The notes under the pieces: model-generated
Databases searched by the model: none
What the model was told of the DNA's origin: nothing
Seen by the model: the letters and a program-made list of their open reading frames with translations, nothing else
NCBI GenBank assembly: GCA_002633005.1
Contig: NMRA01000114.1
Location: forward strand, 460,835-524,834
Reading direction: 5' to 3'
Source: Phoronis australis
Taxonomy: Eukaryota > Animalia > Phoronida
Length of the DNA: 64,000 nt
Part shown: one piece after another, positions 15,701 through 21,700 of the stretch
Numbering within the stretch: the first letter of the stretch is position 1
How the letters are laid out: each line of letters begins with the position of its first letter
Position numbers and translations under genes: made by a program

Positions 15701-18700
15701 GTTTACGGTAAAATGGTATGAAGTCAAAAAATCAAATTCCACAGGCTTTGTACCTTCAGAAAATATACAATTTTATGTATCTTATTTAAATTCTATAGTT
15801 TTGCAGATACTTGGTTACACTCGCAGACTTGTCAATAAGGCCCCACATAACAATAACATTTAGATTTCCATGATTGTATTATGTTTGAGAGAGGGGCTCG
15901 CAGATGTTATTTTGATGAGTCAAAACATCTCACAACTGTTTTATACCAGCTTATAAGAAACAGACATTACAGACATCTGAACAACTTCAATGAAAAATGA
16001 CTTTTGAAACTCATTTAAGAATGAGACCACGTTAGCAAGATCATGGTTGGTGGATTGCTGATCACAAGAAAATAAGACAACAGTAGTCAGACAACTCCTG
16101 TGTACAAGAAAGCCAAAATAGGTGACTTGACACACGAACACACATGCACACACATGGTTAAAATCAACCAATCGGTGAACACAAAAATGAAACTGGCTGC
16201 AATCTATACTAAACGACAAGAAAGTGACCATTAAGTACTACAGTGACAAAACTACATCTAGATGTATCAAAGACAATCTGGAGGTTTCATACAATAAAAA
16301 AGAATTCGGGTATTTTAAAGATTCAATATACTTTTTAAAGCGTAACTCAAGAGACAGGACACCTTTGAGTGACCCCCTTTGAGGGACCGACAATCATACA
16401 AATCCCAATGAGAAAAAGTTAAACAATATCATTTCAATTAATTGGGAGATTTAATTTTTATTACAAATTAAGATATTGCGCTAAATGCCGGGCAACTGAA
16501 ACGGTGAAACTAAAACCAGCCAAGCTTCTGATGATCATCTTATATAGCAATCCCTTCAACTAAAGTTCCATTTTAATTTTATTCAAGCCCTGCATTGCAT
16601 ATCTTGTAAAGGCGGCACAAACGAGACGAGGTTATTTCCAAGAATTATGGTGGAAGGATGCTTCTGTATAGCAGGCTTGACAAAGTGTAGGAAAAACTCA
16701 TTAAGACCTGGCGTGCGTTCAGTAAACGCTAGGACCTACGCTAGGACCTAGCTAAAACCTAGTCAAAGTCACGTGCTCTCATTTAAAATATGCAGCAATA
16801 TCTCACGTAATCTCACGAAGTCTTGCTTTTTAGCGAGGTCCTAGCGTTACTGAAGGGGAGGCTGCAGTGATCGGTAAGTGTAATGAGCTACAGGCATTTC
16901 TCTATAGTGGTGTGGTTGACCGGCCATTAAAAGCCCAAAGGAGGAAGACCAGCTTGATAACTGTGGCCATAGCCTATACAGTACATGGACCGCCAACTCC
17001 GTATACTTTCAATGGACGAAATCTGTGCTCTTACAGAAGCAATGAAGACATATTCACTAGCGACACCTGGACAAATTATCTGGTTTTATTTCCGGCAAGT
17101 GCGTCATCTGCTGATCGTGGTCGGCTGTTGTGTAGTCACAATACACTAATCGGAAACAGGGACAGATAACTTCGGAGAATGGCACCTCTTCTAGGATATT
17201 ACACAAGAAAATGTCGGAGTTGCGAATCTGTTGTCTATAATCTATGCTGTGACTGATACATGTGATCAGCTGGTCATTGCAACTGCACAGACCACAAGTG
17301 AAAGGATATATGCATTACAAGTGGCAAAAATGAGCAATCGCAGCACACTGGGTGAAGCGAGCAGTGACCGAGAGTGACTGGGCAAGACAGGGTGCTGGGT
17401 CACCTGAGGGGAAAGGTGCCTGTGAACCCCGAGAAGGAAGCTTTTTCAAGTGAGGAGCAACCACACACCCTGGTCTTAATCCTCATCAGCACTGCCTTCC
17501 TCAGAGCACACCAACAAGTCTATTTTTTTCTTGGAATTGGACTAGGGGTGTCATGCAGTGAACTTTGGACTCCCAAGAATGACTTTCTTTTCTCATTACT
17601 ACGTGATCACCCCTGCACTTGTGATAATCTGGTCCAGATCCTGTTCTTCACATCGCGGTGAGACTGTGAAGGGAGGATTTACTCTGTTAATAAAACCTTC
17701 TGACGCCGAGGGTCCATGTGAGTTCAGTTGTTCTTACCTTGAGGGGAATTTTTAATCATTGGAAGATTTTTGGACCCGATGAGGTGAAATTGAAGAGATT
17801 TTAACTACTTTTCTGAGAAGAATATCGACATCGCGGGCTCTGTAAAATTGACAAAGCAAGCACACTAACAGCAGAAAGTGACCAATCGTGTTGAAAGTGA
17901 TCGGCTAATTGACATTGAACGAGTGTACACTAGTAGCAGAAACTGGCCAATCACGTTGTCGCGCGCATGCACGGAGTGACGCGCGGACTGGCCAGTCCCG
18001 GTTAGGCCGGTCGTACTCACCAGTGTTCGATCGATTCTATGGAGAAAGTATGAAAAAGGCGTGCCGGTCCACGAGACTCCGCCAGAGAGAGGACTGAGCT
18101 CGGTGACCTGGATGATCGCGCCAATATCTGTAATAGAACAGACCGTGAGACGAGTCACACAAGGCAACCCACACAGGCGAAGACGTCTTTTCCCGTCCCC
18201 ATCCGCTCTCCCCGACAGTTACGGCACATTGTTGTGGTTAGCAATCTGGCAGGCAACGCTGCATGAATGGCAATGATTTGAGCTGTTCTCGCATACATGC
18301 TCGTAAAACATTTTAACGCAAAGGAGACTTGAAAATTTTCATAGGAACTGATCACACATCAGGTAATTGATTCCTGCTGACTCGGAATCTACGAGCAGTG
18401 TTCACGCAATAAGAATACATTCGGCCATAGGAAAGGGAATCGCTTTATATACTCATTTATCTGAAATAATTCAGGAACGAATTACATCAGAACAAAAACG
18501 GACTGAAGCTCCCAAAGAGTTGCCATTCAACAGCGCCAACCCACACAAATCCAACAATGAGAAAACCATCTTTGGGAGGCGAAGAATGAGAGAGACAGGA
18601 GTGTGCAGGCACACACACACACCCACACACTCAAACGGCGCTACTTACCGACGTGCGGTCGATCGTGTGGTGGAAATACGTGACCGCATTGCCTGTCCAC

Positions 18701-21700
18701 GACACGGAACCGCGCAGGGGCGACAGCTCGCTAACCTGCATGATAGCGCCGATATCTACAAAAGAGAGAAAGAGAAGGCCCCCACCTCCGTGTAAGACTC
18801 ACCAGCGTATTCATCACCAAGGTTACCGACACATCACAGGGTTACACAAGCAGCAAATTACATGAACTCTTCACCAATCTGGCACACAACATGGCGGAAA
18901 CAAAGCATTTTTATTACGCCAAATGCATCAACAAAATGAACACACACAAAATTTCCATTTCATTTTTGGATACAATATAATCAACACGTGGCGACCTTTT
19001 GATTACATTGGGTAATGAAGCCAGTCTTTGAAAAGTTAAAAAGTGAGAATGGCATTTGTTTTTCGCAAGTGATCTACCACAGGTAGTGTTCAACAAGAAA
19101 TGACACAGACATGCTGTAGTACCACAACCAGAGATTATGAAGAGCGTAGGTGCAAGAGGGACCGTATCGGAAAGTGACTATACACACTATCTGTACATTA
19201 ACTTACACCATGACGTTAGGTGCTACCTCTGTTACCAAAGATTGAATTTCTAAAATAACTAGATTAGTATTAACAGCAGACTGATAAAACTATAGTTTTT
19301 AAATACTGACGATCCCAGAATGTCATTGCGTGCACAAAAGCAATGCCCAGATGTTCATAATCACATGACTGCATTTTTTAGGAAATATTGATTTTTCATC
19401 AAAATCGCCACATTTTCCAAAAACTCGATTTTTATTGCGAAAAAATTCAGTTTCTTTGTTCTCTTAGTCTTGGTAACAAAGGTAGCCAATTACAAACTCC
19501 CAGGAAGACTCGATAAGCGGCAAAATACAGAAGCAGCGACTGAACTGAACAGAGCACCTCAGAAATGGAACGGTAAGGATAGATATCATGCACAATCATA
19601 TGGCAGAATTATCTTCATCACAGGTGCTGAGCAAACAGTCACATGATCACTTCAACTTGATGAGTAAGACACACTATAATACAATTCAACATTAATCAAG
19701 AACTCCAATAAAAAGCAATCAACAGACAATGCTAATGAACTTGCGTGTAAAACAACCAACACTCAAAAAATTTAGTAGCATTTTTTTTTTTCACGAAATG
19801 CGAATTCAGTTTCGCGATGGCATACTGTTTTACCACAAATGTAGAATACATATATATATACTACATTCCATGAAACAATAGTATCCTTGAGAGGACCTGG
19901 ATCGCCTTATTTAATTTCAGATTTATTTTCTTCGTTTTACCACAAGAAATTTGAGGCCTGTAATTGCAGTGTCTTCAGAAAACACAAGTGCCTTTCTGAA
20001 TGCTTTATACAGAACACCAACACACAGCACTGCTAAACATATTCTCATTTCTGTTGCCTTGCAACGCCCTCGACACACACTATGCCTAAGCTTACCTCCT
20101 AGGTTGCGGTCTGTGATGCGAAAGTTGAGCGGGCAGAACGCCTTGGACGACACGATCTTGGCGCCCTCTTTCATGTTAGCGAACCGCAGCTTGAGTTGAT
20201 GGTCCACCTCGGGCCCAAACGCAAAGTTGTTGACGAATATGACACTGTAACACAAACGTACACAACACATGGTGAACACGTTCTGACGTTAAAAAAGCAA
20301 CACTTTCTTAACAGGCGCATTTTCTTTTCCAACAAAGCAACACTATAGCTCTCTTATCCTATGTTTCAATTGAAATAGGTTACAAAAAACGACTGGAAAT
20401 CCCGAAGACCACACTGTCTTGGCGACTAAAACAAACCTGGAACACAATGAGAATAATACTGTAGCAGCAAGTGGTCTAAACCAACAGGTACTTTTTGACA
20501 AAATGTTTATCAGCCCTTTAAACAACACCACCACCACTGCTTGGACTTTCCAAAATGTTTCAAACCTTTATTGCCCAAGCTGGTAATCGATGCATATACT
20601 TAATTCTTTCTTAGCTGCTTTGGAAGCATTTTGAACATTCGGGTAGACGTTAGAGATAGACTATGAAAACTCTAGCAATGGATCAGAGGATCAGGGCATG
20701 CATTTGCCGTTCTCAGCACTTGGGCGACATTTAGTGCTAGTATCTGTTACAGGCGTGTATCAAAAGAAACATCCATCACTAAGATTTCCAAATCTACTTG
20801 AAGCATGTTACACAGTGTATCAAAAGAAACATCCATCACTAAGATTTCCAAATCTACTTGAAGCATGTTACACAGTTTGTCAACTTTCAAGTGGACGTCT
20901 GTGGTCTCGGTGTTCCTTCAGATACTAGGAAGCGTTATGGTTCGAAGTATACTGAAATAGTGCCTTTTTAATCGCAGACCACGGAAAACAAAGCCAAGAT
21001 GCCAGACTACTTACGTTGCCTCGCTTATTTTCTCCTTCATTTCCTCACAAAGGAAGTCACCCTTCACAAGCTGAAATAAGACACAGTACTTTACAGTACA
21101 TAACCTTGCAGTACATTAAAATACATTACAGTGTGGTACAGTACAATAACCACAGATCAAAGCACAAGTAAAGCTGTTGTAAATCACACCCTCCTTCAAG
21201 AAAGTGACTTCTGATCTGGGGCACTTGAAGCTATGAAATTGGTCTCAACTTTTTCTCACTCAAAACAGAGGAGATTCCATGGATTTGAAAGAACTTGCAT
21301 TATATTATCTATCGAGACCATCATCAACAATATGACCAGTCACGATGGGTGATTTCACGCACCGTACATGGTCTTGAGCGCTACCAAACAGTCACTTCGT
21401 TTCAAGCCCACAAAAAACATGTTCATCATAGCAAGGAACAGTTGGAGACCAGTTTAGTAGCAGGTATAAAGTTTAAATAAAGATTGTTTTTTCTCGACTG
21501 AACGCAGGTTTACAAAGGCTTTATTACAAGTCAAACACTAGATGTTATTACCCTGCAACTGCATGACTTCCTCAAAGCAAACCCTGTATAAAGACATTGA
21601 TGTGGCCTAATGTAGACCTTCATAAGCCAACCAACATAGCATCACTGAAACTTTCCCCAACATCATCACATTAACAATGCAGTCATTATCAGTACATACA

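What the first reader, a model, noticed from the sequence alone, without database searches (positions are those of the whole stretch)
18021..18755. Mutually exclusive duplicated exons swap the substrate-binding loop of the DOT1L catalytic domain
Seen in sequence: two homologous exons of identical length (107 nt) and phase lie in tandem, each with good splice sites and no stop codon. They share 25/36 residues, and 16 of those 25 differ at synonymous positions. This points to an old duplication with both copies under purifying selection, not an assembly duplicate. Because 107 is not a multiple of 3, including both or neither exon shifts the frame, so exactly one must be used. Established: in human numbering the exon is D286-I321. 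It carries the 301-311 substrate-binding (W305) loop that engages H3K79, Y312 of the lysine channel and I290 of the H2B-ubiquitin interface. Both copies keep I290, W305 and Y312 but differ around them ([18 protein letters not shown] vs [18 protein letters not shown]). Inference: one gene makes two catalytically distinct H3K79 methyltransferases, differing for example in me1/2/3 product specificity or H2Bub dependence. This would be a splicing analogue of the trypanosome DOT1A/DOT1B split. I know of no such cassette in vertebrate DOT1L.
Basis: partly seen in the sequence, partly recalled or inferred. Interest (0 to 1): 0.92.

Follow-up and report, generated by a model that had tools for sequence, protein, structure and literature searches.

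The report
DOT1L swaps its substrate-loop exon
This invertebrate's gene for DOT1L, the enzyme that methylates histone H3 at lysine 79, splices in either of two old copies of the exon that builds its substrate-gripping loop; molluscs and ribbon worms keep the same pair, so one gene likely makes two enzymes that differ in how fast or how far they methylate.

Summary
Confirmed and extended. Two 107-nt exons (A 18755-18649, B 18127-18021, minus strand) each encode human DOT1L D286-I321. RNA reads show all four junctions (upstream-A 5, upstream-B 7, A-downstream 6, B-downstream 13). No A-B or skip-both junction was listed, at low depth. Either error makes an early stop. The pair is old: 14 named mollusc and nemertean species have both isoforms in public gene models, and five unnamed genomic loci show A then B. 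Both copies are under purifying selection. In all 15 pairs compared, one copy has V310 and the other F310; position 300 is R in 14 of 15 V-copies and non-basic in 14 of 15 F-copies. These two residues flank the substrate-binding loop, while W305 and I290 stay fixed. A is human-like; B is derived. Altered kinetics, and so a different me1/2/3 balance, is inferred and untested. Against necessity: one group of related loci keeps a single copy, and listed flatworm models show only the F form. I found no paper on this cassette, and no earlier DOT1L finding in this scan; similar exon swaps are noted in other genes of this genome.

The parts
18649..18755 (-). Alternative exon A (107 nt), human-like copy: R300, V310; encodes DOT1L 286-321 with motif VIII (VSWT)
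   Evidence: junction reads from 20096 (4/1/0 in runs X1/X2/X3) and to 15072 (4/2/0)
18021..18127 (-). Alternative exon B (107 nt), derived copy: S300, F310
   Evidence: junction reads from 20096 (5/2/0) and to 15072 (5/6/2)
20096..20244 (-). Shared upstream exon with motifs IV (NNF) and VI (Gx6K); its donor is used with both A and B
15031..15072 (-). Shared downstream exon (42 nt), start of the ubiquitin-binding helix (L322, F326 equivalents)
   Evidence: junction 15031 to 14172 in 6/7/1 reads
18128..18648 (-). 521-nt intron between A and B; predicted long stem pairing about 18591-18505 with 18288-18197, a possible aid to exclusion
   Evidence: z = -3.98, 0 of 100 shuffles as low; lowest of 16 intron tiles; 47 pairs with probability over 0.9; not consistent in relatives
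18756..20095 (-). Intron before exon A, often retained or slowly spliced in two of three RNA runs; in-frame stop at nt 171
   Evidence: Sense-strand depth about 6-11 in X1 and X2 over 18672-19814, against 0 in bins inside four upstream introns; stop position
513..29355 (-). Approximate extent of the DOT1L gene (3' end not mapped by reads)
   Evidence: tblastn of homologues from 29355 to about 3186; long open frame 3785-513; spliced junctions over 14100-25500

Best explanation
The DOT1L gene splices either exon A or exon B into its mRNA, giving two equal-length proteins that differ only in residues 286-321, and the swap likely retunes the substrate-binding loop so that the two forms methylate H3K79 at different rates. 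Shown: both exons are spliced to both neighbours; the pair recurs across molluscs and nemerteans; both are under purifying selection; the fixed contrast is V310 with R300 (A, like human) versus F310 with mostly S/C/P300 (B). Inferred: (1) joint or no inclusion is removed by frameshift and nonsense-mediated decay, perhaps helped by a short or folded A-B intron; (2) residues 300 and 310 sit at the two ends of the loop that orders only on the nucleosome, so losing the basic residue and placing a Phe two residues before Y312 would change how readily W305 closes the lysine tunnel; (3) because DOT1 enzymes work distributively, a rate change would shift the me1/me2/me3 balance; (4) one duplication in an early lophotrochozoan gave the pair, with later losses.
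For: Junction reads for all four joints; a full joint table with no A-B or skip joint; frame logic. Both isoform types in 14 named species (12, 2); in 11 of them same-length isoform pairs differ only inside the exon. A then B, each with AG/GT, in loci L010, L012, L030 and L035, and A followed by a cut-off B in L043. The V copy precedes the F copy in all 8 cases with known order (window, Pinctada model, five loci, P0277); P0278 has I then F; none is reversed. pN 0.09-0.19 (A) and 0.05-0.26 (B) against pS 0.52-0.98 among five genomes. 15 of 15 pairs are V/F at 310, 14 of 15 V-copies have R300, 14 of 15 F-copies are non-basic; 9 deuterostome and ecdysozoan single copies have V310 (9 of 9) and R/K300 (8 of 9). 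Predicted models of both Lineus isoforms fold as DOT1L and put human 300 and 310 at the loop ends. Literature passages: W305 loop ordered only in the active state and W305A inactive (10.1101/501098); K300 contacts H4 in simulations (PMC8671179); the motif VIII loop proposed to account for human versus yeast product specificity (PMC10951340); distributive mechanism (PMC4650758 abstract).
Against: No activity data. I290 and W305 are invariant in all 11 pairs tabulated and Y312 in 21 of 22 exons, so the effect may be small. 33 of 43 loci, from one close group (23 distinct exon sequences), show a single V310/C300 exon; in 20 of them both flanking exons are in the locus. Listed schistosome (14 of 15 with the segment) and opisthorchiid (4 of 4) models are F310 only. 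So either form alone can serve. Tubulanus B keeps R300 and L035 A has C300. A single origin is not proven: AU tests did not reject same-species pairing (p 0.20, 0.056, 0.35), B-group support was 92/89 in one tree and 57/89 in another, and it vanished without columns 300 and 310, where the window's two exons were among 5 of 30 not closer to their own type. A/B labels for database isoforms were set by residue 310, so only the one-of-each pattern and the order are independent of labelling. Model confidence in the loop is low (block pLDDT 57-73). The A-B stem is not consistent in relatives (z +0.5 to -2.1). Read depth is too low to show tissue regulation or strict exclusion.
Confidence: 0.6

Rival explanations
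1. The cassette mainly controls how much DOT1L is made: slow splicing, intron retention and decay around the exon pair set the dose, and the two proteins are biochemically near-equal.
For: The intron before A carries as much sense-strand coverage as the exons in X1 and X2, while four upstream introns carry none. Retention or mis-splicing gives early stops. Some lineages keep only one form.
Against: Dose control does not need a fixed V/F and basic/non-basic contrast in 15 of 15 and 14 of 15 pairs across phyla. Coverage in introns 3' of the cassette may simply reflect unfinished pre-mRNA.
Confidence: 0.17
2. The swap changes a contact other than catalysis at K79: H4-tail or DNA binding, H2B-ubiquitin stimulation, the pocket beside SAM, or a non-histone substrate or partner.
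For: K300 contributes to H4 contacts and R319 to ubiquitin contacts in simulations (PMC8671179 passages). Y312 lines an inducible pocket next to SAM (PMC6943651 passages). Residue 321, next to L322, differs in 6 of 11 pairs.
Against: I290 and R319 are identical in all 11 pairs tabulated, and L284, L322, F326 are in shared exons. The one absolute difference (310) lies beside the lysine channel residue Y312.
Confidence: 0.17
3. One form is a dampened or inactive enzyme that competes with the other.
For: B loses a basic residue kept in 110 of 118 V310 segments among the representative hits.
Against: B is the only form in listed flatworm, limpet and oyster models and the commoner form in most isoform lists; A matches the active human sequence at 300 and 310. 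All motif VIII residues are intact in both.
Confidence: 0.05
4. The second exon is an assembly duplicate or a dead pseudo-exon.
For: None found.
Against: Only 64% nucleotide identity with mostly synonymous change; both spliced in RNA; conserved in other phyla.
Confidence: 0.01

Closest known systems
Homologous mutually exclusive exons from tandem exon duplication (Lam 2021, PMC7954323, abstract; PMC6071210, passages)
   Same: Equal-length homologous exons, one used at a time, variable residues next to a functional site, frameshift and decay as a safeguard.
   Different: DOT1L is not among the readable human MXE tables (Hatje 2017 supplements) or Lam's readable supplements; here the exon holds a catalytic motif of a histone methyltransferase.
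Human DOT1L catalytic domain (PDB 1nw3, 6nj9, 6nqa)
   Same: Same fold (TM about 0.87 for the Lineus B model), same motifs; genomic ORFs with the human-type sequence show the same exon borders; copy A has the human-type K/R300 and V310.
   Different: Single version of this segment in the PDB chains matched and in listed amphioxus (15 of 15), acorn worm (15 of 15) and sea urchin (6 of 15 with the segment) isoforms; no F310 form.
Trypanosoma brucei DOT1A / DOT1B (PMC10951340, passages)
   Same: Two DOT1 enzymes in one organism; the motif VIII loop is discussed there as a possible source of product specificity.
   Different: Two genes, not two exons; ubiquitin-independent; the tested substrate-preference switch (S218/A197) is in motif IV, which is shared by both isoforms here.
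FGFR2 IIIb/IIIc exons (cited in PMC6071210 as the decay-assisted case; details recalled)
   Same: Two homologous exons whose joint inclusion makes an early stop.
   Different: Receptor ligand-binding domain, with known tissue control; no regulator or tissue pattern is known here.

Membership tests
DOT1/DOT1L methyltransferase | Motifs X (VYGE), I (DLGSG), IV (NNF), VI (Gx6K), VIII (VSWT) | tested here: met
   VYGE and DLGSG in the frame at 24537-24118; NNF and Gx6K in the upstream exon; VSWT in both A and B; motif names from PMC10951340
DOT1/DOT1L methyltransferase | Sequence and fold match to solved DOT1L | tested here: met
   Exons match human DOT1L at E about 1e-10; homologues carry PF08123; a Lineus B-form model matches DOT1L at E 1e-44. 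The window's own spliced protein was not folded.
DOT1/DOT1L methyltransferase | H3K79 methylation on nucleosomes | not testable with these tools
   Needs an enzyme assay
Homologous mutually exclusive exons | Tandem homologous exons of equal length and phase with splice sites | tested here: met
Homologous mutually exclusive exons | Each exon joined to both shared neighbours in transcripts | tested here: met
   Four junctions, 5 to 13 reads each over three runs
Homologous mutually exclusive exons | Never included together or both skipped | tested here: inconclusive
   No such joint listed, but listing needs 3 reads in a run, two joints were hidden, and decay would hide such forms
Homologous mutually exclusive exons | Both copies conserved under purifying selection | tested here: met
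   pN far below pS for both; both forms in 14 named species
Homologous mutually exclusive exons | Conserved RNA structure or steric limit enforcing the choice | tested here: inconclusive
   Strong stem in the window's A-B intron; spacers of 53 and 81 nt in L030 and L035; no consistent folding signal in five relatives
DOT1A/DOT1B-type split | Two separate genes differing at motif IV | tested here: not met
   One gene; motif IV is in the shared exon
DOT1A/DOT1B-type split | Different methylation products (me2 versus me3) | not testable with these tools
   Needs mass-spectrometry assays

The most novel reading that the evidence does not exclude
Since early lophotrochozoan evolution, one DOT1L gene has encoded two H3K79 writers with different methylation end products, chosen by splicing in a tissue- or stage-dependent way, and the V310F plus R300S change is a natural switch for DOT1 product specificity, the determinant that structures of human, yeast and trypanosome enzymes have not yet explained.
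Probability: 0.3. Interest if true: 0.86.

Novelty: new variant of a known kind. Interest (0 to 1): 0.66.

Why it matters
Most animals rely on one DOT1L for H3K79 methylation (recalled), and what sets its me1/me2/me3 output is stated to be unresolved, with the motif VIII loop named as a suspect (PMC10951340). This cassette is a natural experiment on exactly that loop. Evolution has held two versions side by side in molluscs and ribbon worms and reduced the difference to two or three residues. That gives a direct two-mutation test in the human enzyme, which is a leukaemia drug target whose inhibitor pocket includes Y312. It would also mean that these animals can tune a core chromatin mark by splicing. 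The splicing device itself is a well-known kind and is common in this genome, which limits the surprise.

Tried and rejected
No whole genome is held, so a second DOT1L gene could not be excluded. No indexed RNA holder was listed; three raw-read runs of the same species label were laid instead, about 18-19% of each. Contig run X4 did not cover the exons. At 98% likeness the A-downstream joint fell under the listing threshold, so its counts rest. A word-index protein search with exon A plus flanks found nothing, a sensitivity limit. AU tests for independent duplications were inconclusive for 3 pairs, and the script failed on the fourth of 5 planned. A 29-nt complementarity between exon A and the upstream exon, and docking-site-like pairings with 17177-17190, were rejected: the first ranked 13th among duplexes, and the second lies in a dispersed repeat. 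The structure models could not be measured for contacts; the loop is low-confidence. Two papers asked for were not held, so the Drosophila MXE catalogue was not checked. A search for DOT1L with Val310 found no paper. Look-ups of earlier findings by place and by sequence found no DOT1L case.
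Full report
Observation. Each is 107 nt, has AG before and GT after, and is open in the same frame. They share 25 of 36 residues, 16 of these with synonymous differences, and 68 of 107 bases. Both match human DOT1L from residue 287 in chain 1nw3_A at E about 1e-10, which fixes the numbering D286-I321. The surrounding exons belong to one DOT1L gene running from about 29355 towards the window start. Either exon alone keeps the frame; both together stop at nt 17 of the next exon, and neither stops at nt 6 of the exon after that.

Splicing. Three raw RNA runs with the same species label were laid on 14900-20400 at 90% likeness, 18-19% of each run being read. Reads per run X1/X2/X3: upstream-A 4/1/0, upstream-B 5/2/0, A-downstream 4/2/0, B-downstream 5/6/2. 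All have GT-AG ends and the gene's strand. Two joints were not shown in that table. A second lay on 14100-25500 at 98% gave a complete table of 9 joints: three of the four cassette joints, five constitutive ones at 0-10 reads per run, one repeat artefact, and no A-B or skip-both joint. The A-downstream joint fell under the 3-read threshold there. So both exons are used; strict exclusion is likely but not shown at this depth, and no tissue bias can be claimed. The intron before A has sense-strand depth of about 6-11 in X1 and X2, while bins within four upstream introns have none. The region is therefore spliced slowly or retained.

Relatives. A search with the upstream exon returned 1107 proteins, of which the best 120 were listed. 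Their segment matching the exon fell into two classes among lophotrochozoans. I listed members of 20 clusters, at most 15 each. Both classes occur in the same species for Mytilus galloprovincialis, M. edulis, Haliotis asinina, H. rufescens, H. rubra, Mercenaria, Mizuhopecten, Argopecten, Ruditapes, Gigantopelta, Lineus and Tubulanus, and for Mya and Sinanodonta: 14 species. In 11 of them, same-length isoforms differ only inside the exon. One class only was listed for a third Mytilus set (A), H. cracherodii, two Patella species, Saccostrea, two unnamed clusters, schistosomes and opisthorchiids (F310), and amphioxus, acorn worm and sea urchin (V310). These absences are weak because listings are capped and models are automatic. 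A Pinctada model reads A then B in tandem. Single annelid models were A-type (Ridgeia) or F310-type (Capitella, Helobdella). A scan of metagenome contigs gave 43 loci. Four hold full A then B exons of 107 nt with spacers of 144, 614, 53 and 81 nt, and L043 holds A and a B cut by the edge. Thirty-three loci of one close group hold a single V310/C300 exon; in 20 of them both flanking exons are present and no second copy was found by profile search. Five loci have no intron before this segment. The window's organism was not identified; its A copy is closest to Ridgeia (83%).

Selection and what differs. Among the window and four loci, non-synonymous difference per site was 0.09-0.19 for A and 0.05-0.26 for B, against synonymous difference of 0.52-0.98. 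Both copies are constrained. In 15 pairs, one copy always has V310 and the other F310. Position 300 is R in 14 of 15 V-copies and S, C or P in 14 of 15 F-copies. Position 314 is mostly L versus mostly V or I. I set A/B labels for database isoforms by residue 310, so the independent facts are the one-of-each pattern and the order: V before F in all 8 cases with known order, I before F in a ninth, none reversed. Nine deuterostome and ecdysozoan single copies have V310 and, in 8, R/K300, so A is ancestral and B derived. I290, W305 and R319 are invariant in the 11 pairs tabulated there.

Origin. A 35-column tree put all B copies, and the single F310 sequences of annelids, limpet, oyster and flatworms, on one branch (92/89). 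With other rows the support was 57/89, and without columns 300 and 310 the grouping dissolved, though 25 of 30 exons stayed closer to their own type; the window's two were among the 5 exceptions. AU tests did not reject same-species pairing for the three pairs tested. One ancient duplication is the simplest reading given the shared order and residues. Parallel duplications with convergent change are not excluded (about 15%). A mollusc-nemertean split implies a Cambrian or older age (recalled).

Structure and mechanism. AlphaFold models of residues 1-335 of both Lineus isoforms fold with mean pLDDT 78-79, and the B model matches human DOT1L. Strands cover human 291-296 and about 311-317, with a low-confidence loop between, so 300 and 310 lie at the loop's two ends; 310, 312 and 314 alternate and would face the same side if 310 continues the strand (inference). 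From passages read: the substrate-binding loop is residues 301-312 and Y312 lines a pocket beside SAM (PMC6943651); Y312 is part of the lysine channel (PMC7764450); the W305 loop is ordered only in the active nucleosome complex, W305A is inactive, and I290A lowers ubiquitin stimulation (10.1101/501098, passages and section 7); K300 is among the strongest H4 contacts in simulation (PMC8671179). PMC10951340 (passages) says product specificity remains elusive, names the motif VIII loop as a candidate, and places the tested trypanosome switch in motif IV, which is outside this exon. DOT1 enzymes are distributive, so rate changes shift the me1/2/3 balance (PMC4650758, abstract and opening text). 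I therefore favour a kinetic retuning of loop closure (0.6). Dose control through retention (0.17) and altered nucleosome, ubiquitin or partner contacts (0.17) are the main rivals.

How exclusion may be enforced. Frameshift with decay is a recognised route for two-exon clusters, as is a too-short spacer (PMC6071210, passages). The window's 521-nt A-B intron folds unusually well (z -3.98; lowest of 16 tiles), with a stem that would bring A's donor near B's acceptor region. Relatives have spacers as short as 53 nt, but their folding scores range from +0.5 to -2.1. This part is a lead only.

Novelty. Searches for DOT1L with 'mutually exclusive exons' (24 papers, 20 listed), grappa/Dot1 with exon terms (5), DOT1L with mollusc and splicing terms (1) and DOT1L with 'exon duplication' (3) showed no paper on this cassette. 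I saw listings and abstract openings, and passages of two papers. DOT1L was absent from the 10 readable supplements of the human MXE survey, which include its table of validated exons; two files were unreadable. It was also absent from 6 supplements of Lam 2021 (abstract read). The library lacks most subscription journals, and the Drosophila catalogue was not available. The isoforms already sit unremarked in public gene models. Earlier notes of this scan hold no DOT1L case but 39 notes fitting 'mutually exclusive exon' in this genome (unchecked), so such cassettes are common here. Verdict: a real, ancient, apparently undescribed variant of DOT1L built by a known splicing device, with an untested but sharply testable functional consequence. 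Interest 0.66.

Noticed in passing
window 18756-20095, minus strand: The intron before exon A has sense-strand read depth as high as the exons in runs X1 and X2 and near zero in X3, while upstream introns have none. It looks retained or detained; lower coverage continues in introns downstream.
   Followed up: partly
L001-L009, L011, L013-L029, L031-L034, L036, L037: One close group of animals has a single copy of the exon with V310 but C300, a mix of the two types; copy B seems lost.
   Followed up: partly
L001 group, L035, L043: The upstream exon (20244-20096 in the window) is split by an extra intron near its residue 17-18 in these loci but not in the window.
   Followed up: no
proteins P0172 (Tubulanus X3) and P0200 (Schistosoma): Annotated isoforms that begin at the Met inside this exon and so lack most of the catalytic domain; they may come from transcripts with the preceding intron retained.
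   Followed up: no
window about 16700-17250, 19850-19950, 23590-24160: Dispersed repeats inside DOT1L introns, drawing hundreds of reads from elsewhere; 16725-16848 is an inverted repeat, like a small non-autonomous element.
   Followed up: no
window 52881-51829, minus strand: A 351-codon open frame that begins with a J-domain-like sequence containing HPD (DnaJ/Hsp40 type by recall), apparently without introns.
   Followed up: no
window 3785-513 and 8101-6674, minus strand: Long open frames (1091 and 476 codons), likely late DOT1L exons with low-complexity sequence.
   Followed up: no
cluster of P0040 (unnamed): A segment resembling the flatworm sequences around the motif but with V310 and no basic residue at 300, in 5 of 9 members.
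   Followed up: no
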